The translations under genes and the position numbers were made by a program. 64,000 bases of DNA from Leptonemataceae bacterium (lineage in GTDB: Bacteria > Spirochaetota > Leptospiria > Leptospirales > Leptonemataceae): the NCBI GenBank assembly GCA_965227295.1, contig OZ245742.1, forward strand, positions 224,001-288,000, written 5' to 3'. The notes under the pieces were generated by a model. That model was given only the letters and a program-made list of their open reading frames with translations. It did no database searches and was not told the DNA's origin. Below are positions 39,005 to 64,000 of this stretch, piece by piece (position 1 is the stretch's first letter; each line of letters opens with the position of its first letter).

Positions 39005-39410
39005 TCGCAAAAGGCGCGAATCCGTATCCGCCCCGCGGATAGAGCGGGGCTCCGGGGTGCGAATTCGCTTCCTGGATCTTTACGACGAAGACGCCGTTCG
39101 GTGCGCCGTACCACATTCCCCGGCATGACCTCCGTTCGTCAGTTGGAACCAGCCGTCCCCATACAAGGCTTAATGTACACTCACCGCCACTTACACCACG
39201 ATCCGGGGCGTCCGCGAACAACCGATACATTTCTGGTAGTTCAAGAGCTGCAGTTCGCTACCGCCGTCGTGAGAAACATGGAGTAAGTTGCAGTATAGTG
39301 AAGGGGATTTTTTGGCTACAGCTTTGCGGGAGTTGTGGATTTTCGTTTTGTTAAGAATGCTGCGTTCGACCCGGGACGCTGCTTATGCGACTCAGCTACC
39401 GCAACGTGAC

Positions 39411-51061: not shown

Positions 51062-52225
51062 ATGAACGCAAACACCCTCACCGCTCCCGCCCCGTCGCAA
51101 TACCGCCCGGGCCTCGAAGGCGTCGTCGCCGCCCGCACGCGACTGTCCCGGGTCGACGGCGTGGCCGGTCGTCTAACCATCGCCGGCTACGAGTTAGAAG
51201 ACTTCGCCCATCGAGCAACCTTCGAAGAGACCCTGCATCTTCTCTGGCACGATCGTCGCCCGGCTCCGGATAACCGGCAGCATTTCAGCGAACAATTGCG
51301 CGCGGCGCGACACTACACGCCCCGCCTGCGCAGGATTTTAGACGAAGCCGTGGACGGCGGCGCTCCGCTCATCGACGTCCTGCGCGTGGGTTGCGCGGCG
51401 TTGTCCGTCGACGCCGGGACCCCGGAACCCGCCGGCGATGCGGAGCGGATTGTAGCGACGTTGCCGTTGATCATCGCTCATGCCGAGCGGCGCAAGCGCG
51501 GCCTCCGCGTTCCGGCACCGCGCGACGACCTCGACCAGGCCGAGAACTTTCTCTACATGTTGGATGGTCACTACAGCGAGAATCTTCCGCGCCGCGCCCG
51601 GGCGTTACACACCTACTGGAACGCCGTCGTGGATCACGGGCTGAACGCCTCGACGTTTACGGCGCGGCTTATCATCAGCACGCGCTCGGACGTGGTCTCC
51701 GCGGTGACGGGGGCGATCGGCGCGTTGAAAGGTCCACTGCACGGCGGAGCGCCGGGGCCGGCGCTGGACATGGTCTTCGAGATCGGCACGGCTGAACGCG
51801 CCGAAGCTTACATTCAACAGAAGTTAGACCGGGGTGAACGTTTGATGGGCTTCGGCCATCGCATCTATCGCGTGCGCGACCCGCGGGCGGACGTGCTGGC
51901 CCGGGCCGCGGCGGAGTTGTATCGCGGGCATCCGGAGCTGGAGTCGTTGTACACTCTCGCGCTGCATGTAGAGCAAACTGCGTTGCGCATCTTACACAAA
52001 CGCAAACCGGAGCGCGTGTTGCAGACGAACGTGGAGTACTACACGGCGCTGTTGCTGCACGGTATCGGCCTCGCGCCGGAGTTGTTCACGCCGGTATTCG
52101 CAGCGGGGCGGGCGGGCGGATGGACGGCCCACTGCCTGGAGTACCTCGCCTCCGGGGAACGCATCCTGCGGCCGGCGTCGGAGTACGCGGGCGCCGAAGG
52201 CCGGCGCTGGGATGCCGGGGTCTGA
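51062..52225 (+). CDS. Citrate/methylcitrate synthase family protein
   Basis: PGLEGV, DHGLNASTF, GPLHGGA, MGFGHRIY...DPR, NVEYY; AGGAG SD. Confidence 0.92.
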   Translation: MNANTLTAPAPSQYRPGLEGVVAARTRLSRVDGVAGRLTIAGYELEDFAHRATFEETLHLLWHDRRPAPDNRQHFSEQLRAARHYTPRLRRILDEAVDGGAPLIDVLRVGCAALSVDAGTPEPAGDAERIVATLPLIIAHAERRKRGLRVPAPRDDLDQAENFLYMLDGHYSENLPRRARALHTYWNAVVDHGLNASTFTARLIISTRSDVVSAVTGAIGALKGPLHGGAPGPALDMVFEIGTAERAEAYIQQKLDRGERLMGFGHRIYRVRDPRADVLARAAAELYRGHPELESLYTLALHVEQTALRILHKRKPERVLQTNVEYYTALLLHGIGLAPELFTPVFAAGRAGGWTAHCLEYLASGERILRPASEYAGAEGRRWDAGV

Positions 52226-52345
52226 ACTTGCGAACGAGAGGTTTCTTCCGGGCACGGCGACAGTCGCTCTAAAATCCGAATAAAAAACATGGGAACGAAT
52301 TCGGAATCCTTGACAGACGCTGCCCGGCATTGAGCCTCAGACATT

Positions 52346-53851
52346 ATGTCTCGCCTGGCCGAGATTTTTTCCCCCGCGAATACGGCCGGACTACTGCCGA
52401 ATAATCCCTGGCTCGCTCTCTTCCAGAAGAACGACTGGCCGGAGTATCTCCAGCTCATCGCCCTGCTCTACGACGCCGTCGAAACGGACGGCCCGCGCGT
52501 GGAGTACGACCTCGCCCGGATCATCATCGAACACTTCTACGAAGATCGCGATCCTGACAGCCGGGTACAAAAAGCGAGTCAGTTCTATCGCATGGCCGTC
52601 GACGAGTTGGAGATCTTACGCGAGATCTACAGCAACACCGGCGAGCGATTGGTAATCGCCACGCGCAACGGAAAAAATCTTTTGCGCATCTGCGAAGAAC
52701 TCATCCGTAGCCGCCGCCGTTTTTCCGGCACGGGAGCGGACGTCATGCTCGGCGCACTCAACGAACTTCTGTTGTATCGTCATCCGATTCCGTTACAGGA
52801 TGCGATTGCGCATCACCAACAGCGCATCGCGGAGTACGAACAAGACATGGACCGCATGCGCCGGGGCGGCGTACAGGCCAGTGAGTTTCTCGGCGACGGT
52901 TCTTCGCCGGAAGAACTCTTCGTGCAGGCCGAAGAAGCGGCCCGGCAGATTCTCCTCGCCGGTGAAGACATCAAAGACGCCATCGAAACGGCGCGCCGGG
53001 ATCTGGCGCAGAGCTACCGCAATCCGGAGTTCTCGGCGGGCCAGGCCATCCAGCACGTAGCTGACTTTCATGTTAAGTTACGGAGTAGCCCCGAGTATGC
53101 GAGCTTTCGGCGCGCAAGCGATCTGCTGTCGTTCATCGACGGATTGGGCGGACGCTTTCGCGAAAAGGACGTCTCGCATATCTTTTTTCTACTGGGATCG
53201 CGCGGCACCGTGCCGAAAGATCTTCTGCACAGTAGCGATCTTCGCCGTTTCTCGGATCGCTTCGCCGGTCTGGAACGAGAAATCGCCGCGAAGATCAGCG
53301 AACAGTTGAACATCCTGCGTGTTCAGGTGCATTACGTTCTGGAAAACACGGGCGGTCGCGCGCAGGCGGACCTGAGCGAATGGATGGCGCTGATGAGCAA
53401 CGCCGGCACCGCGGCCCTCGACTTTCTCGGCCGGGAAAGACTGGAGTACAATGTCGGCCTCGACGTCGACATTGGGCCGGTGCAACCGAATCCGCTGGAA
53501 GTCGAGTTCGACGTGACAGCGTATCGCCCGGAGCGCAACGAACTGAACGAGGACGAATGGCGACGGATGCACGAGCTCCTGCTCTCCACGGAAGAAGCGA
53601 CCATCGGTCGGGTCGTCGAGCGCATGCGGGACTATCTTTCGCGCAACGGATCGGTTCGGCTTTCGGAATATCCGATCGAGTCGGGCATACCGGAAATTTA
53701 CATTCTGTCGAACATTGAATCCTACGCGGACGATATCCGTTCCGAGTTTCTAAACTACGCGGACATCGCCTTTCATTCGAAGGCCGGCGCCGAATTCATT
53801 GTTCAGGACCTCGCCGACCGCCGGTTTTCGTTCATGGAGCAGGCATCGTGA
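52346..53851 (+). CDS. jetA: Wadjet JetA (DUF3375-like kleisin)
   Basis: 501-aa helical protein, first of a 4-gene overlapping operon containing an SMC ATPase and a TOPRIM nuclease. Confidence 0.75.
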   Translation: MSRLAEIFSPANTAGLLPNNPWLALFQKNDWPEYLQLIALLYDAVETDGPRVEYDLARIIIEHFYEDRDPDSRVQKASQFYRMAVDELEILREIYSNTGERLVIATRNGKNLLRICEELIRSRRRFSGTGADVMLGALNELLLYRHPIPLQDAIAHHQQRIAEYEQDMDRMRRGGVQASEFLGDGSSPEELFVQAEEAARQILLAGEDIKDAIETARRDLAQSYRNPEFSAGQAIQHVADFHVKLRSSPEYASFRRASDLLSFIDGLGGRFREKDVSHIFFLLGSRGTVPKDLLHSSDLRRFSDRFAGLEREIAAKISEQLNILRVQVHYVLENTGGRAQADLSEWMALMSNAGTAALDFLGRERLEYNVGLDVDIGPVQPNPLEVEFDVTAYRPERNELNEDEWRRMHELLLSTEEATIGRVVERMRDYLSRNGSVRLSEYPIESGIPEIYILSNIESYADDIRSEFLNYADIAFHSKAGAEFIVQDLADRRFSFMEQAS

Positions 53852-54534
53852 CGACGAACGCATCTGAGTTTGAAAAACCTGGCTCCGCCGTCGAGCCCGA
53901 CCTGGCGTTGGCAGGCATCATTCGCGGCTGTCTCTCGCGACGCTTCATCCTGCGATCCGAGCGCCAGAAACTCTTTCTCTCCATTGTCGAACAACGGGGC
54001 GACCTCAGCGATTACTTCAGCCGGATGGGTGCCCGGCTCGTCGTCGACGAAGGCCTGGGCATCGCCTATCTCCAGTCCCTGCCGGAACACGACGAGGACA
54101 TCGACTACCGTCTGGGCCGAACGAAACGCCTGAGCGCGCTCGAAACTCTGTTGCTCTTCGTGCTGCGCTGGTATCGTAACAACTACTTCTTCGGCGACGG
54201 CGAGGCGGACATGGAGATGCCCGTCATCGACGTCGAACGCATCCGCGAAATGCTCGAAGAGTACAAGCCGGCGAAAGCCGAGCGCGCCTTCGAACAAAAA
54301 CTGAAACGTGCCATCGATAATTTCAGCGATCTAAAAATCTTACTGAAGACCGATCATCCCGAACGCTTCGCCGTCTCCCCCGTCACCGACGTCCTGCTGC
54401 CCGCCGACGGCATTGAACGCTCGCTGAACCGGGCCCGTGATTACTTCGCGTCCACGACGCAAGACGAAGCAGATGCACCGTCTTCGGACGAAGACAATGC
54501 GAATCCCGACGCGAACGCGGATTTGGACTCTTAA
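53848..54534 (+). CDS. jetB: Wadjet JetB (DUF4194-like KITE subunit)
   Basis: DYFSRMGARLVVDE..GIAYL and RLSALETLLLFVLR motifs; GTGA overlap with jetA. Confidence 0.82.
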   Translation: MTTNASEFEKPGSAVEPDLALAGIIRGCLSRRFILRSERQKLFLSIVEQRGDLSDYFSRMGARLVVDEGLGIAYLQSLPEHDEDIDYRLGRTKRLSALETLLLFVLRWYRNNYFFGDGEADMEMPVIDVERIREMLEEYKPAKAERAFEQKLKRAIDNFSDLKILLKTDHPERFAVSPVTDVLLPADGIERSLNRARDYFASTTQDEADAPSSDEDNANPDANADLDS

Positions 54535-54547
54535 CAGGAACCCCGGT

Positions 54548-57500
54548 TTGAACGCGAACAACAACGGAAAGACCGAGAAGAACGGGCATCACGGAAATCG
54601 CCCGGTCAACATAAGCCTCGGTTACACGTTGCAGCGCGTCGAAACTCTCGACTGGGGCAACTTACGCGGCTGGCAGCCCATTGAACTGAGTCTCGCCGAC
54701 GGCGGCTCGCGCCTGTCGTTGATCGCGGGCATCAACGGCTCCGGTAAGTCCACCATCATCGACGGCATCATGACGGTGCTGCTCCCGTTCAAGCAGCTCC
54801 TGCAACTCGGCGTGACCCACGACTTCGAAGAAGGCCGGTCCGGTTCTCGGAACGTCGATGACTACCTGCTCGGCAAACACGCGGCGACGGGCGGTGATGC
54901 CGTCGAAGACGATCAGGTCTACAGCCGCGACACCGGCGTTTCGTGCATTCTCCTGGTCTTTCGGCACAACGAAAATCCCGAACGCTGGCTGAGCCTGGCG
55001 CGCGTGTGGTGGTACGCCGGTCGCAAGATCCGCGAAGATTCAGCGAATATCATCGCCCGGGAAAATCTGACGATCGGTGCGAGCGACGCGCGCACGCCGG
55101 AAGACGAGGGCGGCGGCCTCTTTCAAACGCCGCGACTCAGTCTGTGCGACGATGCCGGTCACATGTTCGCGAGTCTCGCCGCCATGAAGCGCGGCCTGCC
55201 GCAAAAGAGCGACCGCATTCAGGTCTTCGACCGCGTGAACCAGTACTTCGAAACGCTGCGCAAGTATCTCGGCGGCGTCAGCAAAGAAGATCTGCGCATG
55301 CTCAATCGCGCCTTCTACATGAAGTCCATCGGCCACATCGACCGCTTCATTCGCGAGCACATGCTCACCGAGATGGAGCACGAATCGATTCACTCTTTGA
55401 TTCAACATGTCAAGCAGGCCGCGGAGATTTCCCGGGACATCGCCAGAAGCGAAGAGCGCGTCGTAGCACTCAAGGTGATCACCGGCAACCTGCGCACGTT
55501 TCGCGAACACCAGATTCGCATCGAAGCATGCCGGCTGGAAATTCGACTCCTGCGAATCTACGAAAAATGGGCGGAACGCCGGGACATCGAACTCGAACTG
55601 ACGAAACTGGGGCACGGCATCGAGACGGCGGAGGCGCAGCTCCCCGGACTTCGGCAACGCGTGGATGATGCCGAACGGGAGTCCAACAAACTCCAGCAGG
55701 AGCTGAACGCCAGCGAAGGCATCCTGCGCCTGGAACGCCTCAAGGACGATCGCAAGAATCTCGAGAAAGACATGAATCTCATGCGCCGGGAGCGCGAGAC
55801 CGTGGAAGAACGCTGCGTTCGTCTCGGACTGGAGCGGCCGAAATCCTTCGAGGGGCTGCCCGCGTTCCGGGAGGCCGTGAAAGAAGTTCGTAGCGGCCTG
55901 GTAAACGAGGCCGCGGAATTTGCGGCACATCAAAAACAGGTGCACATCCGCGAAGGCGAGCTACGCACGGAGACGGAACGCGTACGCGGTGAGATCGAGT
56001 TTCTCTCGAAGAACCGCACCGTCATCGATGAGCAGACCTACCGGATAAAAACGCGCTGCTTCGAGGAACTCGGCTTAAGTAATACGGATTTGATGTTTGT
56101 GGGCGAGCTCATTCGCGTGAAAGCGGACGCCCATCAGTACCGCCGCGCGGTGGAATCGGTGCTCGCCCCCATCTCTCGCAACCTGCTCTGCGCTCCGCAT
56201 TGCCTGGACGATGTCACCGAATGGTTGAATCGCACGCAGCTCCGCCGCACCGTCGTAATGAAGCGCATCCGATCGGAAGAACTCGAGGCCCGGCCGGCGG
56301 AGAAGGCCGCAAAGGATTCCATCCTGAATCGCATCGAGCTGCGACCGCGCGAAGACCATCCGTTCTACGACTATCTCTGGAACTGGTTGCGCGCGGAGTT
56401 TTATCATCGCGTCGTCGGCGTCGAAGAACTCCGCAGCAGCGTCGACCGCGCGGTTACCGTCGAAGGCCTGGTAAAATCGGACCGCCGGACGCAACGAAAG
56501 TACAAAGAAAAGCTGGAGTACAGTTTAGGCTGGGACAGCCGGGAACGCCAGGCAGAACTCGTCCGGAATTTGAACGCGCTCCAACGAGAAGACGAGCAGA
56601 TTCGCGCGGAAAACGCCGCCCTTGAAGAACGTCGGCGGGACCTGTCCGCCCGGGAACGCGATGCGGACGATTTGCTCAAAGAAGCCCACGAATACCTCGG
56701 TCTCCCGGAGCACGAAGAACGCTATGTCCGGCTGGAACAGGAAATCCTCGTTCTGGAACGAGACGACACGGATTTGAACGCCCTGCGGGAACTTGCCGAA
56801 GAAAGCAAACGCCGCTACGGCATGCGACAACGCGAATTGGTCCAGCTCGAACAGAACCTCGAACACGATCAGCGGAACCGGGAGAAGCTGACAAACGAAC
56901 GCGCGGATCTGGAATCGATCATCAATGATCGCCTGGGAGTTCCCCCGGAAGGAGATCGGCGGCCGCTCCGCGAGGCGGTCCCGGACTGGGAGGAGCGTCT
57001 TAAGTCTATTCAGCAAATTCTTAGTGTAAAGAATCTACAGGTTCACGAATACGAACGCGAGATTGAATCGGAGATCAACAGCCGCACGCTGAGTCGCAAC
57101 AATACGCACGTCCGGGATCGCTTGAAAAACTACCAGGAGGATCATCACGATCCGAATTTGCCGGCAGACTTTCATCCCGAAACCGTCACCGTGGACGGCA
57201 TCGATCGTTTCCTGGAAGCGTGGAACGAAGCCCTGGAACGCCTGGAATCGACCGGACTGCCGGCCGCTCGCGAAAAATGGACGCGCTTTTACAATGACAC
57301 GCTCATCGACGCCATTAAGGCCGCCGTCAACGAAATCCGCACGCAGCAACGCGAAGTCGAAACGAACATCGCCAGCATCAACTCGGTGCTGCGCGGGGTG
57401 GACTTCGAACGTCTGCCGGAGGGCAATCGTTATCTTAAGATCGAGGCGCAACGCAGCAACGATACCCGCGTCCGTCGTTTTCTGAAAGACGTCAAAGAAG

Positions 57501-58132
57501 TCGAGGGTGTTCTCGCCGGAGATATTCGCGGTCTCGGAGCGTCCGAAAACGCAAAACAAACGATGGCGGTGCTGGAACCGTTCGTCGAAAGCCTGACGGA
57601 AGATCCGAATTATCAGGCCTACGTCGTCGACGTGCGCAATCATCGCACGTTCCAGGTGCACTCGCTGCGCCGCAATCCCGACGGCGAAGACGTAGTCGTC
57701 GAACGCTTTGCGGGCGCGCGGACGGATTCCAAGTCGTCGGCGCAGACCGCGCAGCTGGCGTACACTCTGCTCGCGTCTTCGCTGGCGTATCGTTTTCATT
57801 TTCATACGCCGGCGCGCGGGCAGGACAGCTTGCGGCTGATCATCCTCGACGAGTTCACGAGCAAGTTCGATAACGAGAAACCCCACGACGTCATTCGCCT
57901 GCTGACCGACATGGGCTTCCAGGCCCTGCTGGTAAGTCCGCTGGACAAGGCCGATCTCCTGGCCGAGCACATCAATCGGCTGGTCTTCGTGTTCAAGGTT
58001 TCGGCCGAGGAATCCAAGGCGTATTCGCATCCGATTCGTTCACGCAAAGACTACGATCGCCTCATGGAAAATGCCAGGCAAATCATGCGTGCCGGGCAAC
58101 CGGCTGGAACCGAGCGAAATGCGGGAGCGTAA
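54548..58132 (+). CDS. jetC: Wadjet JetC SMC-like ATPase
   Basis: Walker A GINGSGKST, long coiled coils, hinge (FVGELI), signature-like KSSAQ, LAYTLLASSLAY, Walker B LIILDE. Start uncertain (TTG 54548 after AGGA; frame open from 54437). Confidence 0.9.
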   Translation: MNANNNGKTEKNGHHGNRPVNISLGYTLQRVETLDWGNLRGWQPIELSLADGGSRLSLIAGINGSGKSTIIDGIMTVLLPFKQLLQLGVTHDFEEGRSGSRNVDDYLLGKHAATGGDAVEDDQVYSRDTGVSCILLVFRHNENPERWLSLARVWWYAGRKIREDSANIIARENLTIGASDARTPEDEGGGLFQTPRLSLCDDAGHMFASLAAMKRGLPQKSDRIQVFDRVNQYFETLRKYLGGVSKEDLRMLNRAFYMKSIGHIDRFIREHMLTEMEHESIHSLIQHVKQAAEISRDIARSEERVVALKVITGNLRTFREHQIRIEACRLEIRLLRIYEKWAERRDIELELTKLGHGIETAEAQLPGLRQRVDDAERESNKLQQELNASEGILRLERLKDDRKNLEKDMNLMRRERETVEERCVRLGLERPKSFEGLPAFREAVKEVRSGLVNEAAEFAAHQKQVHIREGELRTETERVRGEIEFLSKNRTVIDEQTYRIKTRCFEELGLSNTDLMFVGELIRVKADAHQYRRAVESVLAPISRNLLCAPHCLDDVTEWLNRTQLRRTVVMKRIRSEELEARPAEKAAKDSILNRIELRPREDHPFYDYLWNWLRAEFYHRVVGVEELRSSVDRAVTVEGLVKSDRRTQRKYKEKLEYSLGWDSRERQAELVRNLNALQREDEQIRAENAALEERRRDLSARERDADDLLKEAHEYLGLPEHEERYVRLEQEILVLERDDTDLNALRELAEESKRRYGMRQRELVQLEQNLEHDQRNREKLTNERADLESIINDRLGVPPEGDRRPLREAVPDWEERLKSIQQILSVKNLQVHEYEREIESEINSRTLSRNNTHVRDRLKNYQEDHHDPNLPADFHPETVTVDGIDRFLEAWNEALERLESTGLPAAREKWTRFYNDTLIDAIKAAVNEIRTQQREVETNIASINSVLRGVDFERLPEGNRYLKIEAQRSNDTRVRRFLKDVKEVEGVLAGDIRGLGASENAKQTMAVLEPFVESLTEDPNYQAYVVDVRNHRTFQVHSLRRNPDGEDVVVERFAGARTDSKSSAQTAQLAYTLLASSLAYRFHFHTPARGQDSLRLIILDEFTSKFDNEKPHDVIRLLTDMGFQALLVSPLDKADLLAEHINRLVFVFKVSAEESKAYSHPIRSRKDYDRLMENARQIMRAGQPAGTERNAGA

Positions 58133-59293
58133 ATGATAGATGAGATCGAGAAACTTTTCGATCTTGAATCTTATCTCGATCGAGCTGAAAAAGACTTCTT
58201 GTTAAACGGCCGGGAAGAATTTCGGTTCTCCTTGCGTTTTACGCGGCGCGTGAAAGCCGGTCACGATCGCTTCGAAAAAGAAATTCGCGCCTTTGATTTT
58301 CTGCGCTTAGACTACGGTCGCACCGTTCGCAGCGGTCATGTGCGCGTCGGACGTATCAGCGAGATTGCCTTCGACATCGAAGACCTGCTGCGCCTGCGGC
58401 CGGAGTTACGTGTTGTGCGGCGGGCGTTTCTACAGGCATTCGATACGTCGTCGGCTTCCGCGGTGCGCACCTACGTGCAAAACAATTACGCGTTATGCCG
58501 GCGCAAGTTCGAAGTACTGCCGGACTGCGTTGATGTGCTCGAGTACCTGTTCGCGCATCGCGAATCCGTTCGCGGCCGGTACTGCCGGCAAATCCCGCAC
58601 GGAAAATCTACCAAGCTGATTGGACGGGAAGCGCTACTCCTCGGACTCTACGAAGCCGTACGACGCGAGCGCAGCGAAAATTCCGACGGCAATCAGCAGG
58701 CACTGAAAATTCGGTGGAGCGATTTCGTTGCCGACTTTGATCTGAGAACGAAGCCGGCGGCCTTTCTCTTCTGGGCATCCCGGCTTCGCATCGACGGACA
58801 TGCCATCGAAAATTTCGACGCGCTTCTGAGTGACGAAAATATTGATCGATTAACCTTTCCGGAAGTAAAGTTTGCGCTGATCGTAGAAAACGAAGAGACG
58901 TTCTACAGCGTTCGAGACGCCCTGCGAGATTTTTCGGCTCCGGCAGTGTTGATTGCCGGCGGCGGCGCGGCCGTCGGCGGCGCCGGTTTTCTCGCCGGGG
59001 TGCTGCAAGCCCGCCCGCATTATTACTGGGGCGACATGGACGCCTCCGGCTACGAAATCTTTCACGGCGCACGAAGCGTGTTTCCCGCATTGGAACCGCT
59101 GCTGATGAATCATGAAAGCCTGCGTCGCTACGAAAGTGTCACGCAGCAAGTCGCTCCAGTGAACCCCAGAACGGCGCGGGTTCCGCTCCTGGATTCCGAG
59201 TACCGCCGGGTGTGCCGGGACGGGTTGCGCATCGAGCAAGAGCACATTGCCATCGAAGACCTTCTTCAAATCCTCGAAGAATCGCTGCGCTGA
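58133..59293 (+). CDS. jetD: Wadjet JetD TOPRIM-fold nuclease (DUF2220-like)
   Basis: LIVENEETF, YYWGDMD.SG, LLM, RIEQE motifs. Confidence 0.88.
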   Translation: MIDEIEKLFDLESYLDRAEKDFLLNGREEFRFSLRFTRRVKAGHDRFEKEIRAFDFLRLDYGRTVRSGHVRVGRISEIAFDIEDLLRLRPELRVVRRAFLQAFDTSSASAVRTYVQNNYALCRRKFEVLPDCVDVLEYLFAHRESVRGRYCRQIPHGKSTKLIGREALLLGLYEAVRRERSENSDGNQQALKIRWSDFVADFDLRTKPAAFLFWASRLRIDGHAIENFDALLSDENIDRLTFPEVKFALIVENEETFYSVRDALRDFSAPAVLIAGGGAAVGGAGFLAGVLQARPHYYWGDMDASGYEIFHGARSVFPALEPLLMNHESLRRYESVTQQVAPVNPRTARVPLLDSEYRRVCRDGLRIEQEHIAIEDLLQILEESLR

Positions 59294-59322: not shown

Positions 59323-59916
59323 TCAATCCACCTCGAACATCTCCGCCCCCTCCGGCCCCACGTTCCACGCCGTCGCACGCTCCTCTTCTAACAGTAATCG
59401 CGCAGAAGTTACGACGCACGCCGCCGTCGTCGTAATGACCGGCAGAAAACCGTCGCCCTCGCACGTCGCCTGGCCGGGCACGTCCTCGGAGTCCACGACG
59501 AACTCACTGTCCGGCCGCACCGCGGCGAAGCTGCCGTCCGCGGCGAGACCGGCGTGAATGCAGGCGATGCCGTGTGCACGCACGAACTCCTGCACGAGCA
59601 ACCGCGATTCCGCGTTATCGAAACATTCGATGACCAGGTCCCGGCCGCCGAGCAACGTCTCCACATTCTCCGGCGCAAGCCGCACGGAATAATCCTGCAA
59701 CTTGCGGCCGAAGAAATTCTGGAACTGCATCTTGAGCGCGACGGCCTTGTTCTTGCCGACCATGGGCTTCACGAACCACTGCGACACCAGGTTCTTCGTC
59801 TCCACACGATCGAAGTCCACGACGGAAAGATCCGCGGCGAGCCCGCGCGCCGCGTAAACGACGTGCGAACCCAGGGCCCCGCCCCCGCAGACAATGATGT
59901 TCTTCGCAGCGCTCAT
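59323..59916 (-). CDS. Minimal ThiF/E1-like adenylyltransferase
   Basis: CGGGALGS, VDFDRVE.KNL, VGKNK, ECFDN..SR; candidate catalytic Cys in ATCEG; no CxxC zinc pairs. Confidence 0.9.
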   Translation of the reverse strand: MSAAKNIIVCGGGALGSHVVYAARGLAADLSVVDFDRVETKNLVSQWFVKPMVGKNKAVALKMQFQNFFGRKLQDYSVRLAPENVETLLGGRDLVIECFDNAESRLLVQEFVRAHGIACIHAGLAADGSFAAVRPDSEFVVDSEDVPGQATCEGDGFLPVITTTAACVVTSARLLLEEERATAWNVGPEGAEMFEVD

Positions 59917-59919
59917 TGC

Positions 59920-60174
59920 TTAACCTGCGCCGAACGGAACTTTAGGCCGAATCACGTAACGCGTTTCCCGACCGCGGCCCGCGCGAAAGCGGTCGATCAC
60001 GAAATGATCGAACGCACCCGACGGCACATTCCCGGCGCGGATGCCCGGAACTTCACCGGCACGCACGGCTTCTTCGGCAATGCGGCGGATCGTTTCATCG
60101 TGCACGTTGTCTTCCAGTTCCACCGGGTAGTTGCCCGACTGGCCGTTGTATGTAATGTTCAGAATCACTTTCAT
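59920..60174 (-). CDS. Small ubiquitin-like (beta-grasp) protein candidate
   Basis: 84 aa; beta-beta-alpha-beta-beta pattern by eye; C-terminus RPKVPFGAG; lies between JAB and E1; GAGG SD before ATG 60174. Confidence 0.7.
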   Translation of the reverse strand: MKVILNITYNGQSGNYPVELEDNVHDETIRRIAEEAVRAGEVPGIRAGNVPSGAFDHFVIDRFRAGRGRETRYVIRPKVPFGAG

Positions 60175-60196: not shown

Positions 60197-60550
60197 TCAC
60201 GAGCGCCCGAACGAAAGTTCGCGCAGCGTCTCAAGCCACCACGGCGCATCTTTGCGCACACGATTGCGACCCCGGCAACCCCACCGGCTCAAATAGCCGC
60301 TTCGCGTAACCACAGACCAATGAAACTTAAGCCCCGTGGCCGCCTCCACCGCTTCCATCGTCGTGCGGTCCTCCTCCGAAAACCGCAGCATCTCACCGGG
60401 ATGCGTATGCACAATCTCGGCAATGTCCGCGCGGTGTTCCCAGATCGTTTCCCAGCGCTCCCGGGCGTCCGGAATCGCCGCTTCGCTGCCGTAGTAGATC
60501 CTTAAGATCGTACCGGCTTTTGTTAAAATAAAACACACCTCGCGCATCAC
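60197..60550 (-). CDS. JAB/JAMM (MPN+) metallopeptidase
   Basis: Exact H-x-H-x7-S-x2-D motif (HTHPGEMLRFSEED) and an N-terminal Glu (REVC). Confidence 0.85.
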   Translation of the reverse strand: MMREVCFILTKAGTILRIYYGSEAAIPDARERWETIWEHRADIAEIVHTHPGEMLRFSEEDRTTMEAVEAATGLKFHWSVVTRSGYLSRWGCRGRNRVRKDAPWWLETLRELSFGRS

Positions 60551-60556
60551 ACAAAC

Positions 60557-61471
60557 TCAGCCGCGGCGATACACATGCAGTTGATGCGTGGCGATGGCCT
60601 CGCGCACCGCCGACGGCAGACTCGACAGATTCAACTCCTGGTCCGCCCCGTCGAGACAAATCCCCGCGTCGAGAATCTGCAACGTCGCGCGATCCACGAC
60701 GCACTCGTACTTCTCGCCGCCGAAGCGGTACTTCACGATCGCCTGGTCGCCGCCCTGGCTGCGCCAGTCCACCAGCTCCGCGCCGGTGTGCGCGAGGGCC
60801 GCAATGACACGATCATCGAACGTCTCGTCGCGGCGACGACGATCGCGCACGAGTTCTTCCAGCTCACGTTCCGCGACGGCGCGACGCTCGGCCTCGCGAC
60901 GCAGGTACGCTTCTTCTTCGGCACGCAACCGGGCGAGCTCCGCCGCCTGGTGTTGCAGTTCGCGATCGAAGACCGCGGCCGCGTACGCGCTCGCGAGCGA
61001 AGGCACCACGCCTTTTACGTGATCGATGCCGCGGCCGTCGCGATGTACGCTGCCTTCTTCAAAGGCGTCGCGCACCTGACCTTCGGCTTCGCTCTCGAAA
61101 CCGATGCCGGTAAAAATGTAGTGCCCGTCGTACCACACCCGCGCGGTGATCGGGGCGAAACGTTCCGGCGGTTCGTTCGCATCGATGCCGAAGATGTTTT
61201 TCTGAAACGTATCCCCGACGAAGCGGCCGTTATAAAAGTGACCGCTGACTTCTTTGAGATCCGCATGATCTTCCAGCGCCGTTCGCGCCGTGTCTTCGTC
61301 GAGGGCCTCCGCGACTTCCACGAAGCGGCCCTGTTCGCGGAAACGATACCAGCCCGGCGCCGGTCGTTCTTTCAGGCGATACGCGCGCTCCGCGTCACAC
61401 ACCCGGTCGCCGCCGAAGTACGGCAACACCAGTTCGCGATCGCCGCCCTGTAGAAATGCGCGATAGTCCAT
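60557..61471 (-). CDS. Hypothetical protein: beta-rich N-terminus, coiled coil, C-terminal domain with E2-like GICL motif
   Basis: Start ATG 61471 (MDYRAF), 304 aa; QILDAGICLDG near the C-terminus; first gene of the JAB-Ubl-E1 run. Confidence 0.7.
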   Translation of the reverse strand: MDYRAFLQGGDRELVLPYFGGDRVCDAERAYRLKERPAPGWYRFREQGRFVEVAEALDEDTARTALEDHADLKEVSGHFYNGRFVGDTFQKNIFGIDANEPPERFAPITARVWYDGHYIFTGIGFESEAEGQVRDAFEEGSVHRDGRGIDHVKGVVPSLASAYAAAVFDRELQHQAAELARLRAEEEAYLRREAERRAVAERELEELVRDRRRRDETFDDRVIAALAHTGAELVDWRSQGGDQAIVKYRFGGEKYECVVDRATLQILDAGICLDGADQELNLSSLPSAVREAIATHQLHVYRRG

Positions 61472-61635
61472 AAACGATCTCTGTAACAGAGGCACGCGAG
61501 TGCGAAACAGTTTTTTCCTTCGCAGGAAAATTCCGGATTCGAACCGGAACGGTGGACAACCGTTTGCTCCCATAGCAAATCTCAAATGCTTGTTACTGTA
61601 ATTCCGATTGCATGCCTCTATTGCAGAGATCGTTT
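61472..61635 (-). ncRNA. Structured tRNA-mimic RNA, copy A (Y-RNA/Yrl-like candidate)
   Basis: About 26-bp closing stem; core 61491-61616 with D-like arm, T arm TCCGG-TTCGAAT-CCGGA and a GCGA tetraloop hairpin; 5' and 3' blocks shared with copy B. Confidence 0.75.
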
Positions 61636-61642
61636 CGGTGGA

Positions 61643-61802
61643 GAACAGCGCCGGGGATGGGCACGCGAGTGCGATGCAGTTTCGTTTGGTTACGTGACCG
61701 GAATCGAACCGGCTCCTCAAGATTAGAAGTCTTGTGCTCTACCTGTGAGCTACACATGCTTGTAACTGCGCTCCGATTGCATGCCCATTCCCGGGGCTGT
61801 TC
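61643..61802 (-). ncRNA. Structured tRNA-mimic RNA, copy B, containing a tRNA-Arg(UCU)-like cloverleaf
   Basis: About 24-bp closing stem; cloverleaf at 61687-61759: GCTC-ACAGGTA-GAGC, CAAGA-CTTCTAA-TCTTG, GCCGG-TTCGATT-CCGGT, 5-bp acceptor stem, then CCA. Confidence 0.8.
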
Positions 61803-62081
61803 GTCGTTTTCCCTTCTCATCTATTTTGCGCGCGTTCTTTGCAAGATCGGAGCGGTTTTTTCTGCGCCGTCCTTGAAAAACAAGAACGCCCACCCGCCTG
61901 CCGCGCCCGGTTCATCGGCCCGTTTTCGCACCTCATCAACGGTTCGCCGAAACCTCAACCAGCCTCCTATCTCGCAACTCGCGGACACACCGTCCGCATT
62001 CCTCGCAACTGATCATTCCTCCCGTCCGCCCTCGCGGACATTCCTTTTAACATGTTAAAATAACAGGACCGCAGGCGGCCC

Positions 62082-62125
62082 AAAAACGAAAAAACCCTCC
62101 GATGCGCGTGCATTCCGGAGGGTTT
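62082..62125 (-). terminator. Intrinsic terminator, probably conditional (attenuator)
   Basis: Minus strand AAACCCTCCG...CGGAGGGTTT followed by TTTCGTTTTT. Confidence 0.8.
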
Positions 62126-62159
62126 CGTGGAATCGAAACGGGTCTTTCGCCGCATCAAC

Positions 62160-62261
62160 TTACACCACAGACCCTCCCGGCATCTTGCCGCAGTCCTCAT
62201 TCGTTTTCCGATGTAAACTTACAGGTCGCATCATCGTGCCTTTCGAGGTTATGAGACGCAT
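62160..62261 (-). promoter_or_regulatory. Putative leader peptide ORF of the attenuator
   Basis: 33 aa (MRLITSKGTMMRPVSLHRKTNEDCGKMPGGSVV*); alternative starts at 62234/62231 after AAAGG; its last codons contain GGAGGGT, complementary to the terminator 5' arm. Confidence 0.5.
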
Positions 62262-62291
62262 GGTTCCGTAAAATTGTTTCAAAAAATTTTT

Positions 62292-62404
62292 ACTCCGAGG
62301 CCCGAGGTACCGAGAAAAAAGAAAAAGGAGGGTGATCATAACCCGCTTGCATGCAGACTACAATCACCCTCCCCAAAAAAACTCGGACCCTCGGTCCTCG
62401 GAGT
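62292..62404. repeat. Intergenic element with terminal inverted repeats (family A)
   Basis: ACTCCGAGGCCCGAGG ... CTCGGTCCTCGGAGT. Confidence 0.8.
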
Positions 62405-62417
62405 CCAACTTCTTAAC

Positions 62418-64000
62418 TCAGTACGGCTTCGTCAGCAACTGAGTCCGCAGCACTTCCTCGACGAGAGACAGCTTGCCGCTTTTCAGCGGTTGCGCCTTCA
62501 GGATCGCCTGAAGACTGCGCTGCACCTGGTAGACGTCCGAAAACTGATCGACGTCCACTTCCGTGTACGGCAACTTCATCTCCACGGCCGCCTTGCGCAC
62601 CGTTTCGCCGCGCGACCACGCCACGTTGACAATGTGCGCGAACGCCGAGACATCGAAGCCGCAATCACGAAACGCCTTCGCGAACTCCGCGCCGGACTCA
62701 CCGGCCTCGTCACCGACGGCGAAGACGATCAGGTCCGCGCCGTCCGGAATCGTAACACCGGACTGCTTCAGCGCACGCACGCCGGAGCCGTAGACCGTGC
62801 CGCCGCCCGCTTCGATGCGCGAGAGCATGTGCTCCACGCCGCGCCGCGACGGATGACGCAAACGCAACACGGTGCCCACGGTATCAAAGGCGACGACGTG
62901 CAGTTTCTCCGGCTCGAAGCCCTGCAAAATTCCCGCGAGCGCCTCTTTCGATTTCTCGATGGCGCCGGACATCGAAGCCGACGTGTCGATCAAGAACACG
63001 ATGTGGATGTCCGCGTCTTCCGTCGCTGCGTCCACAGCCTTCTTGACGGCGCCGTCCGCCGCATCTTCCAACGCTGCGACGTTCTCGCGGTTACGCACGT
63101 TCTTTGCGATGTTGCGCGCCCGCTGATCGTCCAGATTCTTAAGTGCATCCTGCCAGCGCTTACGAATCTCCTCGTGCTTCAACAACCCCAGGTCCTCCAG
63201 CGTCGGCGTGAGAATCGCGAGATCCCGATCCGACACACCGCCGGCTTCCAGTACAGCGACGAAGATCGCCGGACTCAGGCCGATCTCCGGCGGCAGCATG
63301 CCCGTGACCTGCTTGTAACCGAGCTGTTTGTCCACGATCAGCGCACAGATTTCCGCTTCGCTCTTGTTTTCGAAAGAAAGGCTCTCGCGATTCAACTCGC
63401 CCAGGCCCACGCTACGGTGACCCTGTTCGTGCTGCTTCTGCGGCCAGTTCAAAATCTCGAAAAAGCGCTGCGACTCCGGCTTGTATCCGACCATGCGCGC
63501 CAGGTTCTTCACCGTCTTCGCGTAACCGGCCTTCTTCAGGCCCTCGAGCAACTGAATGTTCATCTCGCGGAAACGCAGCCAGTCTTCCACGGCCTTGTAA
63601 TAACGGCCCGTAAACGGCTTGCGTTTCTGCACATTGCCGAAGCCCAGTTCCTTGTTGATCGCGACAACGCCAGGCAACGACAATACGTCGCCGATACGCG
63701 CAATCATCTTCGGCGAAAGCATCTTCGCCGAGCCGCGCTCATAGGTCTTCAGCATGGCCTCGCCGACTTCTCGAAAGTCGTCGTCGTGAAACAGCAGTTC
63801 GCGTTTGCCGTTGTTCTCGTCGAACACCGGTTCGCCGCTGCGGTTCTGCACGAGCATGAACGCCGCGCACACGACCTTAATATCCCGCCACGTGGTCTTA
63901 GTCGCCACGTAGGACGCGAGCCGGGCCGCGAGTTCCTCGTTCACCTTGTAAATGTCCGCGATCGTGCCGTAGACCTGCACGATGGCGTGTTCGTTCGGCC
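62418..64000 (-). CDS. vWA-domain protein with large helical N-terminal region (TROVE/Ro60-like architecture); 5' end outside the window
   Basis: MIDAS DTSASMS ... GGT ... VGDE in the C-terminal ~195 aa; basic helical N-terminal region; frame open to the window edge. Confidence 0.8.
   Translation of the reverse strand, partial: PNEHAIVQVYGTIADIYKVNEELAARLASYVATKTTWRDIKVVCAAFMLVQNRSGEPVFDENNGKRELLFHDDDFREVGEAMLKTYERGSAKMLSPKMIARIGDVLSLPGVVAINKELGFGNVQKRKPFTGRYYKAVEDWLRFREMNIQLLEGLKKAGYAKTVKNLARMVGYKPESQRFFEILNWPQKQHEQGHRSVGLGELNRESLSFENKSEAEICALIVDKQLGYKQVTGMLPPEIGLSPAIFVAVLEAGGVSDRDLAILTPTLEDLGLLKHEEIRKRWQDALKNLDDQRARNIAKNVRNRENVAALEDAADGAVKKAVDAATEDADIHIVFLIDTSASMSGAIEKSKEALAGILQGFEPEKLHVVAFDTVGTVLRLRHPSRRGVEHMLSRIEAGGGTVYGSGVRALKQSGVTIPDGADLIVFAVGDEAGESGAEFAKAFRDCGFDVSAFAHIVNVAWSRGETVRKAAVEMKLPYTEVDVDQFSDVYQVQRSLQAILKAQPLKSGKLSLVEEVLRTQLLTKPY

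What the first reader, a model, noticed from the sequence alone, without database searches (positions are those of the whole stretch)
61687..61759. tRNA-Arg(UCU)-like cloverleaf embedded in copy B with a broken acceptor end
Seen: near-canonical D arm, a 5-bp anticodon stem with loop CTTCTAA (anticodon TCT at 61725-61727), a T arm and a 3' CCA. Acceptor positions 1-72 and 2-71 mismatch and the module is locked inside a long stem. Inference: it is not a translating tRNA but bait or a sensor for anticodon nucleases (colicin D, for example, cuts tRNA-Arg), or a captured tRNA gene being domesticated. Copy A has lost the anticodon loop and acceptor stem and keeps only the D/T elbow.
Basis: partly seen in the sequence, partly recalled or inferred. 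Interest (0 to 1): 0.75.

Follow-up and report, generated by a model that had tools for sequence, protein, structure and literature searches.

The report
tRNA-shaped Y-like RNA beside Ro-like gene
The tRNA-Arg look-alike is real, but it most likely does not work in translation: it looks like one of two tandem Y-RNA-like tRNA mimics that belong to a conserved, mobile gene cassette led by a very divergent Ro60-like protein.

Summary
On the minus strand, 61687-61759 scores as tRNA (Rfam 53 bits against a cut-off of 29; ARAGORN calls Arg-UCU). Acceptor pairs 1-72 and 2-71 are mismatched, and the module sits on a long terminal stem.

It is not the genome's tRNA-Arg(UCU); two ordinary ones exist elsewhere. 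Its nearest relatives are about 110-nt RNA units in the same place in other loci. There, 1-6 tandem units lie beside a conserved cassette: Ro-like vWA protein, an unknown protein (P0001), a JAB peptidase, a ubiquitin-like protein (Ubl) and a ThiF-type E1. This is seen in Verrucomicrobiota and Myxococcota loci.

The stems covary: 14 of 34 pairs changed on both sides, matched by 0 of 500 shuffles. The basal internal loop is invariant. The anticodon triplet is the most variable part, with 12 triplets in 21 orthologues, 9 starting with A34.

The neighbouring protein resembles Ro60 by fold only. Its N-domain alone finds Rsr/Ro60 as the top 3 of 48,161 chains, at Z 9.3-7.2. Pfam TROVE does not match.

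Best reading: Y-RNA-like tRNA mimics of a new Ro-like RNP, often placed next to long tRNA arrays and once found in a 197-kb phage. Expression and binding are untested.

The parts
61645..61800 (-). Copy B, whole Y-like RNA: extended terminal stem, conserved internal loop, second helix, apical tRNA-like module
   Evidence: Fold (z -4.59). Family alignment and pair counts. Model R1 scores it 83.9 bits (it was in the training set).
61687..61759 (-). tRNA-like module of copy B (the finding)
   Evidence: ARAGORN; Rfam RF00005 at 53 bits.
61723..61729 (-). 7-nt anticodon-like loop CUUCUAA; triplet UCU at 61725-61727
   Evidence: These columns are the most variable in the family.
61687..61690 (-). Internal ACCA, starting 7 nt after the T stem
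   Evidence: A CCA at the same place is seen in 16 of 22 type-Ia units (read by eye from the alignment).
61773..61780 (-). 5' strand of the conserved basal internal loop (GCAAUCGG), the presumed protein-binding handle
   Evidence: Invariant or nearly so in 22 units. Resembles, but does not match, the GNCGAAN0-1G / GGUCCGA Ro-contact motif quoted in PMC4201824.
61664..61672 (-). 3' strand of the handle (GCACUCGCG)
   Evidence: CACUCG is kept in Verrucomicrobiota and Myxococcota units.
61478..61629 (-). Copy A, second Y-like RNA with a degenerate tRNA module; it ends 7 nt before the start codon of P0001
   Evidence: Fold (z -4.84). R1 scores 37.1 bits over its full length. Motifs.
62418..64000 (-). 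Ro60-like vWA protein gene (599 aa; runs on to 64217, beyond the window)
   Evidence: Pfam finds vWA only. AF2 models. Foldseek top 10 are all Ro60. N-domain alone: Rsr, phage Ro60 and Xenopus Ro are the top 3 of 48,161 chains. hhalign probability 55%.
60557..61471 (-). P0001, 304-aa protein of unknown family, always next to the Ro-like gene or the RNAs
   Evidence: No Pfam, NCBIfam, PADLOC, PDB or Atlas match.
60197..60550 (-). JAB/MPN-like peptidase (117 aa)
   Evidence: Prok-JAB at 23.5 bits, E 5.3e-5, just under the cut-off of 25. An HTH...S..D motif is visible in the translation.
59920..60174 (-). Small ubiquitin-like protein (84 aa from the ATG at 60174)
   Evidence: Conserved RPKVPFG followed by 0-8 variable residues in 61 homologues; synteny. 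The beta-grasp fold was not tested.
59323..59916 (-). ThiF/E1-like adenylyltransferase (197 aa)
   Evidence: Pfam ThiF at 74 bits. PADLOC E1-E2 models match the E1 half. NCBIfam.

Best explanation
The module is the effector end of a Y-RNA-like non-coding RNA, not a decoding tRNA.

Two such RNAs, copy B and copy A, are encoded in tandem on the minus strand, between a very divergent Ro60-like (TROVE-like plus vWA) protein gene and the P0001-JAB-Ubl-E1 genes.

Each RNA pairs its 5' and 3' ends into a basal stem. That stem carries an invariant asymmetric internal loop, GCAAUCGG opposite CCACUCGCG. By analogy with Y RNAs on Ro60, I infer that this loop is the handle that binds the Ro-like protein.

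The apical part of copy B is a nearly complete tRNA shape. It has a D/T elbow, a 5-bp anticodon stem with a 7-nt loop, a shortened acceptor helix and an internal ACCA. I infer that this shape is held out to a tRNA-binding partner, or competes with real tRNAs. It would thereby tether or gate the Ro-like protein and its cassette partners on tRNA substrates.

Shown here: the structure, its conservation and covariation, its fixed linkage to the cassette, and the cassette's recurrent placement beside long tRNA arrays.

Inferred, not shown: transcription, binding to the Ro-like protein, and the identity of the partner.
For: Architecture matches published bacterial Y RNAs:
- A long stem formed by the two ends, plus a tRNA-like module.
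- Several Y RNAs side by side next to the Ro gene on the same strand: one tRNA-like, one a plain hairpin.
- In D. radiodurans they are co-transcribed with a tRNA (PMC4201824, passages and section 9).

Copy B has the D - anticodon arm - T order that the paper describes for Yrn1. Relatives also have the T - closed acceptor - D order of YrlA (types I and II), and short hairpin units (type III).

Conservation of the family:
- 128 units were found in 43 sources. These came from 133 regex hits, of which 5 lay inside the JAB gene and were dropped.
- All 8 of 8 Verrucomicrobiota genome loci have units between the Ro-like gene and P0001.
- 8 of 10 Myxococcota loci have units just upstream of the Ro-like gene.
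- Model R1 finds L011 and L020 units, which were not in its training set, over their full length at 66.8, 62.8 and 51.7 bits.

Covariation:
- 96.0% of cells are paired, and 14 of 34 pairs changed on both sides.
- 0 of 500 shuffles reach this; slid controls give 37-51% paired.
- Copy B itself carries compensatory changes in the basal stem and in 4 of 5 anticodon-stem pairs.

Neighbouring protein:
- The Foldseek top 10 for the full-length model are all Ro60/TROVE entries (E 2e-8 to 5e-7).
- For the N-domain alone, the top 3 of 48,161 chains are Rsr 2nvo (Z 9.3, 243 aligned), phage Ro60 9l5y (Z 7.8) and Xenopus Ro 1yvp (Z 7.2). The next chain scores 6.4.
- The MIDAS residues D411, S413 and S415 are invariant.

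Not a decoding tRNA:
- 12 triplets occur in 21 seven-nt loops, 9 of them with A34, while U33 (17 of 21) and R37 (21 of 21) are kept.
- The genome has two ordinary tRNA-Arg(UCU) genes.
Against: - The Ro60 assignment is weak at sequence level. There is no Pfam TROVE hit and no Ro60 among PDB sequence or profile hits. hhalign against a Ro60 alignment gives probability 55%, E 1.2e-4, over 123 columns. The N-domain alone gives Foldseek E 0.016 and TM 0.2-0.3. Z values of 7-9 lie within the range the tool warns about for helical repeats.
- Rfam YrlA (RF02553) does not match the window at E up to 10. It reaches only 22 and 19 bits, against a cut-off of 69, on type-II relatives.
- The published GNCGAAN0-1G motif is not present as such.
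- There is no evidence of expression.
- The one phage copy of the cassette shows no Y-like unit by my motifs or by R1 beyond tRNA-core matches. The proteins can therefore occur without these RNAs.
Confidence: 0.6

Rival explanations
1. Bait or sensor for anticodon-loop nucleases. The tRNA-shaped modules are decoys, and their cleavage protects real tRNAs or triggers the cassette. This can coexist with the Y-like reading, as the job of the apical module.
For: - Unlike canonical YrlA, which lacks an anticodon loop (10.1101/312249, passages), these units keep a full anticodon arm with the U33/R37 frame. The triplet is the fastest-changing part.
- The cassette sits next to long tRNA arrays in 5 of the 6 Verrucomicrobiota genome loci that have at least 5 kb of upstream flank, and in a phage.
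- In the window it lies beside a Wadjet defence operon.
Against: - The variation may be plain lack of constraint.
- No nuclease, ligase or known defence family was found in the cassette.
- UCU is not conserved, so nothing points to tRNA-Arg or to colicin D.
Confidence: 0.15
2. Cis-acting leader or processing element of the P0001-JAB-Ubl-E1 mRNA. The structured units would control transcription read-through or translation of P0001, rather than act in trans.
For: - Copy A ends 7 nt before the P0001 start codon.
- Units in relatives end in U-rich tails, like terminators.
- The units are always on the same strand as the cassette and upstream of one of its genes.
Against: - In Myxococcota the units precede the Ro-like gene instead of P0001.
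- Up to 6 different units in a fixed order is more than a leader would need.
- The invariant internal loop and the tRNA tertiary-type nucleotides point to a protein-bound, stable RNA.
Confidence: 0.1
3. RNA cofactor or substrate mimic for a tRNA-modifying activity of the cassette, for example a Ubl/E1 sulfur relay like the tRNA-thiolation systems (recalled: TtuB/TtuC, Urm1/Uba4). The Ro-like protein would act as a tRNA scaffold.
For: - A Ubl with a conserved C-terminal Gly followed by a variable tail, a JAB peptidase and a ThiF-type E1, with no E2 detected.
- Constant association with tRNA arrays.
Against: P0001 matches no thiouridylase or PP-loop family. The link is by analogy only.
Confidence: 0.08
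4. Precursor of a real tRNA-Arg(UCU) that RNase P and 3' trimming cut out of the stem, and that is then charged.
For: - The cloverleaf score is high (53 bits).
- There is an encoded CCA.
- M. smegmatis YrlA is cut by RNase P and receives CCA (PMC4201824).
Against: - Pairs 1-72 and 2-71 are mismatched.
- The CCA is one position out of register.
- D-loop position 20 is U, not the A20 that bacterial ArgRS needs (recalled knowledge).
- Orthologous units carry 12 different triplets, many with A34.
- Two normal tRNA-Arg(UCU) genes exist.
Confidence: 0.04
5. Decaying tRNA pseudogene or repeat with no function.
For: The acceptor end is broken. Copy A is degenerate.
Against: - Covariation and compensatory changes.
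- Conservation across two phyla and in 43 sources.
- Fixed position in a conserved cassette.
Confidence: 0.03

Closest known systems
Deinococcus radiodurans Yrn1 (Rsr-bound Y RNA)
   Same: - Terminal stem formed by the 5' and 3' ends.
- tRNA-like part in the order D-like arm, 5-bp 'anticodon' arm, T arm.
- Encoded beside the Ro gene together with further Y RNAs and a tRNA.
(PMC4201824, passages and section 9.)
   Different: - Yrn1 has a 6-nt loop, no clear D arm and no V region. Copy B has a canonical D arm, a 7-nt loop with U33/R37, a 4-nt variable region, a 5-bp acceptor helix and an internal ACCA.
- The partner protein here is not a recognisable TROVE protein.
YrlA of Salmonella and others (Rfam RF02553)
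   Same: - Ro-binding stem plus a tRNA-like effector module.
- The type-II relatives of copy B have the same T arm - closed acceptor hairpin - D arm order.
- Tandem arrangement with a hairpin-type Y RNA (YrlB).

   Different: - YrlA lacks an anticodon loop and joins the Ro module through the anticodon stem. Here both unit types keep a whole anticodon arm. Type II is opened at the variable loop instead, and copy B is joined through the acceptor end.
- RF02553 scores are far below the cut-off.
- The GNCGAAN0-1G motif is not matched exactly.
Ro60/Rsr (TROVE plus vWA) RNPs
   Same: - Helical-repeat N-domain of about 400 aa followed by a vWA domain with MIDAS residues.
- Best structural matches are Ro60 proteins.
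- Neighbouring structured RNAs.
   Different: - No Pfam TROVE match.
- Profile-profile probability is only 55%.
- Constant partners are P0001, JAB, Ubl and E1, rather than the rtcB/rtcA genes that neighbour rsr in Salmonella (the rsr-yrlBA-rtcBA operon order is recalled; PMC7790460, abstract seen in the listing, covers only the RtcB/RtcA repair operon and its regulator RtcR).
[quoted passage not shown]
   Same: The cassette lies directly downstream of arrays of 4-33 tRNA genes in several loci and in a phage. L-arrays are reported to spread horizontally and to occur in Verrucomicrobia and in phages (PMC8421152, passages).
   Different: Copy B is not an array tRNA. In this genome the large array lies 4.3 Mb away. 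The passages I read do not mention a Ro-like cassette.

Membership tests
Functional tRNA gene (Rfam RF00005 / tRNA-Arg UCU) | Cloverleaf scoring above the gathering score | tested here: met
   53 bits against 29. ARAGORN calls Arg(tct).
Functional tRNA gene (Rfam RF00005 / tRNA-Arg UCU) | Seven-pair acceptor stem | tested here: not met
   Pairs 1-72 and 2-71 are non-standard. Both strands run on into a covarying stem. Relatives keep only 4 acceptor pairs. Whether processing ever releases free ends could not be tested.
Functional tRNA gene (Rfam RF00005 / tRNA-Arg UCU) | Anticodon conserved among orthologues and usable for decoding | tested here: not met
   12 triplets in 21 seven-nt loops; A34 in 9 of 21.
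Functional tRNA gene (Rfam RF00005 / tRNA-Arg UCU) | Aminoacylation | not testable with these tools
   Needs an acid-urea northern. Position 20 is U, not the A20 identity element (recalled).
Bacterial Y RNA (Yrn1 / YrlA, RF02553) | Long stem formed by the 5' and 3' ends, plus a tRNA-like module with T and D arms | tested here: met
Bacterial Y RNA (Yrn1 / YrlA, RF02553) | Encoded within about 4 kb of a Ro60 orthologue, on the same strand | tested here: inconclusive
   Same strand, about 620 nt from a vWA protein that resembles Ro60 by fold only. There is no Pfam TROVE match.
Bacterial Y RNA (Yrn1 / YrlA, RF02553) | Ro-contact motif GNCGAAN0-1G (or GGUCCGA) near the 5' end | tested here: not met
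   Copy B has GCAAUCGGA and relatives have AAUCGAAUG. This is similar but not a match to the motif quoted.
Bacterial Y RNA (Yrn1 / YrlA, RF02553) | Score at or above the RF02553 gathering score (69 bits) | tested here: not met
   No hit in the window at E up to 10. 22 and 19 bits on type-II relatives. In the own genome only tandem tRNAs score, at 29-30 bits.
Bacterial Y RNA (Yrn1 / YrlA, RF02553) | Bound and stabilised by the Ro protein | not testable with these tools
   Needs co-purification and a knockout.
Ro60 / TROVE protein (the neighbour) | TROVE domain by sequence profile | tested here: not met
   Pfam finds vWA families only. PF05731 finds nothing in the genome, while controls ring.
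Ro60 / TROVE protein (the neighbour) | Ro-type helical-repeat N-domain by fold | tested here: inconclusive
   Top 3 of 48,161 chains are Ro proteins, at Z 9.3, 7.8 and 7.2 with rmsd about 15 A. Foldseek on the N-domain alone gives E 0.016. hhalign probability 55%.
Ro60 / TROVE protein (the neighbour) | C-terminal vWA domain with MIDAS motif | tested here: met
   vWA at Z about 15. D411, S413 and S415 are invariant.
Prokaryotic Ubl-E1-JAB system (downstream genes) | ThiF-type E1, JAB peptidase, and a small protein with a conserved C-terminal Gly | tested here: met
   ThiF at 74 bits. Prok-JAB at 23.5 bits, just under its cut-off. RPKVPFG plus a variable tail in 61 homologues. No E2 was detected; P0001 is unassigned.

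The most novel reading that the evidence does not exclude
A mobile tRNA-surveillance module, carried by phages and genomic islands. In it, a divergent Ro-like ring loads arrays of complete tRNA mimics. The anticodon loops of these mimics diversify so that they act as decoys or trip-wires for anticodon-loop nucleases. A linked Ubl-E1-JAB-P0001 branch turns the state of these mimics, or of the tRNAs of the neighbouring long array, into a protein-modification signal. This would be a new kind of RNA-guided arm of the tRNA arms race. It would also be the first Ro/Y-type RNP tied to ubiquitin-like chemistry.
Probability: 0.12. Interest if true: 0.85.

Novelty: new variant of a known kind. Interest (0 to 1): 0.62.

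Why it matters
Twelve years after their discovery, the tRNA-like halves of bacterial Y RNAs still have no known partner. This family offers a fresh, richly varied set of them:
- three architectures in a fixed array order;
- full anticodon arms with fast-changing triplets;
- an internal CCA.

All of this is locked to a five-gene cassette that standard profiles do not recognise as Ro-related. The cassette travels with long tRNA arrays, and in one case sits in a 197-kb phage.

The family gives direct experimental handles: which protein binds the invariant loop, and what binds the tRNA shape. It also links three open topics, namely Ro/Y RNPs, horizontally spread tRNA arrays, and bacterial ubiquitin-like systems.

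For annotation, it is a warning. ARAGORN and Rfam call these units tRNA genes with odd anticodons (Leu-AAG, Ile-AAU, Ser-AGA and others).

Tried and rejected
- The search for related loci with the single protein P0001 found nothing in genome contigs. The alignment A1 did.
- A1 found nothing in viral contigs.
- A DNA search of 40 relatives found only the window's own genome. A1 in 201 genomes of the phylum likewise found only the own genome.
- P0001 stays unassigned. Pfam, NCBIfam, PADLOC, a PDB profile search and the ESM Atlas gave nothing usable.
- pdb_via on the full-length model was filled by vWA domains and said nothing about the N-domain.
- Sequencing runs: no RNA holder was listed, so expression could not be examined and read laying was not used.
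- The promoter scan found no sigma-70-like site at 61300-62500.
- The idea that copy B is a recent copy of the genome's own tRNA-Arg(UCU) is rejected. Only universal tRNA positions are shared.
- PRTRC membership for the cassette was considered because of a weak PRTRC_ThiF hit (36 bits against a cut-off of 145). I dropped it, because none of the other proteins matches a PRTRC model.
- Papers PMC5062991 and PMC10870794 are not held.
- The eLife 2020 conflict-systems paper had nothing relevant in the passages searched.
Full report
1. What is there

On the minus strand, ARAGORN calls a 72-nt tRNA-Arg(tct) at 61687-61758. Rfam's tRNA model matches 61691-61759 at 53 bits, against a gathering score of 29, with E 1.5e-8 for the window.

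The cmscan alignment shows canonical D, anticodon and T arms. The two outermost acceptor pairs (G1.A72, C2.A71) are flagged as non-standard. An ACCA follows, but it is internal and one position out of register, and the strand runs on.

The 156 nt at 61645-61800(-) fold with both ends paired into a long stem around the module. The energy is -62.8 kcal/mol, z -4.59, and 0 of 200 shuffles fold as well.

A second copy (A, about 61478-61629) lies 169 nt downstream. It shares the same 14-nt and 15-nt stem motifs and a similar fold (z -4.84). It keeps a perfect T arm, but the tRNA finders do not call it.

2. Not a copy of a host tRNA

The genome is 5.94 Mb in one contig, with 86 ARAGORN calls. It has tRNA-Arg(UCU) genes at C1:3633294-3633368 and, inside a large tRNA array, at C1:4547606-4547679.

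The module shares only the universal tRNA positions with them. Its best identity to any own tRNA is 0.70. Its nearest relatives, at 0.71-0.74, are 'tRNAs' that ARAGORN calls in other organisms' loci. Those are the family described below.

3. Gene context

The two RNAs sit in a minus-strand gene row, in this order:
- a 599-aa vWA protein (62418-64217, running off the window);
- an intergenic stretch of about 620 nt with terminator-like hairpins;
- RNA B, then RNA A;
- P0001, 304 aa, with no family match;
- a 117-aa JAB-like peptidase (Prok-JAB 23.5 bits);
- an 84-aa small protein;
- a 197-aa ThiF/E1 (74 bits).

A Wadjet JetABCD operon lies next door on the plus strand.

4. The family

P0001 has 148 relatives at E up to 1e-3, mostly 274-aa metagenomic proteins, and the few that carry a name are from Verrucomicrobia. 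An alignment of 25 of them (A1) recovered 26 loci from genome assemblies and 70 from metagenomes.

The whole row, Ro-like protein - P0001 - JAB - Ubl - E1, is conserved in Verrucomicrobiota and Myxococcota loci.

In all 8 Verrucomicrobiota genome loci, 1-6 tandem RNA units fill the gap between the vWA gene and P0001. A motif census gave 133 hits in 46 sources. I dropped 5 of them (182-194 nt, inside the JAB gene), which leaves 128 units in 43 sources.

The units share their ends: CACGCAAUCGG..GGAAGUYACAAGC at the 5' end, and ACUUCU..CCACUCGCGUG plus a U-rich tail at the 3' end. They come in three designs:
- Type I has the D arm, anticodon arm and T arm in normal order. It is split into Ia (about 110 nt) and Ib (about 128 nt, with an extra 3' hairpin).
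- Type II has the T arm, a closed 7-bp 'acceptor' hairpin, the D arm and then the anticodon arm. This is a circularly permuted tRNA opened at the variable loop.
- Type III is a 70-nt hairpin with no tRNA features.

The common array order is Ia, III, II, II, Ib. Copy B is a type-Ia unit. Copy A resembles a degenerate Ib.

In Myxococcota the same kinds of unit lie just upstream of the vWA gene, with slightly different ends (CCUACACGC ... CACUCGG). They were seen in 8 of 10 loci.

5. Is the structure real?

I aligned 22 type-Ia units, including copy B. A hand-drawn structure of 34 pairs is 96.0% paired. 14 pairs changed on both sides, and 0 of 500 shuffles reach any of the five measures. Slid controls give 37-51% paired.

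Copy B itself carries compensatory changes in three basal-stem pairs, one pair of the second helix and four of five anticodon-stem pairs.

The internal loop between the two basal helices, GCAAUCGG opposite CCACUCGCG, does not vary.

A covariance model of this alignment (R1) finds units of L011 and L020 over its full length at 66.8, 62.8 and 51.7 bits. These Myxococcota units were not used to build it. In the own genome:
- copy B scores 83.9 bits;
- the best real tRNA scores 53.0 bits, through the tRNA core alone;
- copy A scores 37.1 bits over the full length.

Type-II units give 14 of 30 covarying pairs in RNAalifold, including all seven pairs of the closed acceptor hairpin.

6. Anticodons

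The three anticodon columns have the highest entropy of the whole type-Ia RNA.

Of 78 distinct units that could be parsed, 70 have at least 4 of 5 stem pairs.

| Type | Units | 7-nt loops | Different triplets | Other features |
|---|---|---|---|---|
| Ia | 22 | 21 | 12 | U33 in 17/21, purine 37 in 21/21, A34 in 9/21 |
| II | 25 | 19 | 14 | |
| Ib | 23 | 18 | 9 | |

UCU occurs once in type Ia, and that once is copy B.

So the loop frame is kept while the triplet is free or diversifying. This excludes a decoding role. It also removes any special link to tRNA-Arg.

A CCA starting 7 nt after the T stem is present in 16 of 22 type-Ia units (read by eye).

7. The neighbouring protein

Sequence methods see only a vWA domain.

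An AF2 model of the whole protein (pLDDT 79.6) has Ro60/TROVE entries as its 10 best Foldseek matches: human, Xenopus, D. radiodurans Rsr and a Thermus phage Ro60. These have E 2e-8 to 5e-7, 523-622 aligned columns and TM 0.35-0.51.

Because the vWA part could carry that result, I folded residues 1-395 alone (pLDDT 79.1):
- Foldseek is weak there. Ro60 ranks first at E 0.016 with probability 0.92.
- A search of 48,161 representative chains that does not depend on Foldseek puts Rsr 2nvo (Z 9.3, 243 aligned), phage Ro60 9l5y (Z 7.8) and Xenopus Ro 1yvp (Z 7.2) in the top three places. Unrelated repeat proteins follow at 6.4 or less.

Profile-profile comparison with 24 canonical Ro60 proteins gives probability 55%, E 1.2e-4. 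It aligns residues 287-416 collinearly with Ro60 236-378.

Pfam TROVE finds nothing in this genome, while it finds 4 of 151 genomes of the phylum.

I call the protein Ro60-like with moderate confidence, not a Ro60 orthologue.

8. Comparison with published Y RNAs

I read passages of Chen et al. 2014 (PMC4201824), its section 9, and passages of Wang et al. 2018 (10.1101/312249).

Bacterial Y RNAs are described there as follows:
- They pair their ends into a stem that holds the Ro site.
- They lie within 4 kb of rsr, on the same strand.
- They come in sets of at least two per species: one with a tRNA-like module and one a plain hairpin.
- In D. radiodurans they are co-transcribed with a tRNA.

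YrlA has the order T - closed acceptor - D. It lacks an anticodon loop and a free CCA. Yrn1 has the D - 'anticodon' - T order, with a 6-nt loop.

The present family reproduces the overall design and both orientations. It differs in four ways:
- a complete anticodon arm in both types;
- an internal CCA;
- up to six units per locus;
- a handle that only resembles the published GNCGAAN0-1G motif.

RF02553 does not reach its cut-off anywhere.

9. tRNA arrays and a phage

Of the 6 Verrucomicrobiota genome loci with at least 5 kb of upstream flank, 5 have 4-14 ordinary tRNA genes just upstream of the Ro-like gene.

A tblastn of the Ro-like protein against 50,697 phage records gave one hit, the 197-kb Virus Rctr197k (KX853510.1), at 36.7% identity over 98% of the protein. 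In that phage a 33-tRNA array is followed directly by the Ro-like gene and a P0001 homologue. JAB, Ubl and ThiF homologues lie a few kb further on. I saw no Y-like unit there.

Long, horizontally spread tRNA arrays are known from Verrucomicrobia and from phages (PMC8421152, passages). TROVE proteins with 'a tRNA-like partner' are mentioned for jumbo phages (PMC7824862, passage).

The cassette is rare. It was found in the own genome only, among 41 relatives by DNA and among 201 genomes of the phylum by protein.

10. The Ubl branch

In 61 homologues the small protein ends in a conserved RPKVPFG followed by 0-8 variable residues. This is the pattern expected of a ubiquitin-like protein whose tail is trimmed by the JAB peptidase to expose the glycine for the E1. 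No E2 was found. P0001 might fill that role or a target role, but this is not tested.

11. Mechanism, and how sure

I put 0.6 on the following. Copy B and copy A are Y-RNA-like RNAs. Their invariant basal loop binds the Ro-like protein. The tRNA-shaped top of copy B engages a tRNA-binding factor, or competes with tRNAs. This places the cassette's activity on tRNA substrates.

Structure, conservation and linkage are shown here. Expression, binding and the partner are inferred.

The decoy or sensor idea (0.15) is compatible with this, as the job of the top module. A cis-regulatory role (0.10), a cofactor role in tRNA modification (0.08), a real tRNA precursor (0.04) and junk (0.03) follow.

12. 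Is it in print?

Five searches found the Y RNA papers. In the rows listed, none joins Ro60 or Y RNA with ThiF/E1/JAMM, with Verrucomicrobia or Myxococcus, or with tRNA arrays. These statements rest on the listings and on the passages named above.

Burroughs and Aravind 2016 (PMC5062991) and the 2020 Annual Review on bacterial Ro60 (PMC10870794) were not available. They may bear on novelty, as may the unseen supplements of PMC4201824.

I rate the finding a new variant of a known kind.

Noticed in passing
window 51062-59293 (+): A Wadjet-type operon lies directly beside the cassette. It has DUF4194/MksE (53848-54534), an SMC-like 1231-aa protein (54437-58132) and JetD (58133-59293). Two upstream ORFs (51062-52225, 52346-53851) lie just before it: 52346-53851 has no Pfam match and 51062-52225 was not scanned.
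   Followed up: partly
G000:C1:4547528-4559530 (outside the window): A very large tRNA array: about 41 ARAGORN calls in 12 kb, in two inverted blocks with duplicated members. It looks like a horizontally acquired long array. In this genome it is not next to the Ro-like cassette.
   Followed up: no
L107 (phage KX853510.1, 177309-193165): A 197-kb phage carries a 33-tRNA array followed by homologues of the Ro-like protein and P0001. JAB, Ubl and ThiF homologues lie further on. The Ro-like gene is annotated only as a misc_feature 'similar to conserved hypothetical protein'.
   Followed up: partly
window 39290-39383 (+): ARAGORN calls a 94-nt tRNA-Arg(gcg) here, but Rfam does not find it at the gathering score. 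It is probably a false call.
   Followed up: no
L008 8158-8216 and 8447-9244: A partial tRNA-like match (47.7 bits, model positions 7-64) lies just upstream of an SPFH/Band-7 gene, downstream of the cassette. I recall, but could not check, that a tRNA-like RNA linked to Band-7 genes has been described.
   Followed up: no
L025 about 879-1037: A Planctomycetota locus with a distant P0001 relative holds a T arm followed by a D arm. This looks like a permuted tRNA-like unit, which suggests the RNA family reaches further than my motifs (output).
   Followed up: no
window 62327-62372 (-): A 20-bp hairpin with a U tail lies just after the Ro-like gene. It contains GCAUGCAAGCGGG, close to the 5' handle motif of the RNA units. 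It may be a remnant of a unit reused as a terminator.
   Followed up: no
L009 5711-5756: An Acido-Lenti-1 RNA (RF01687, 40.8 bits against a cut-off of 37) sits between two Y-like units in one Verrucomicrobiales locus.
   Followed up: no
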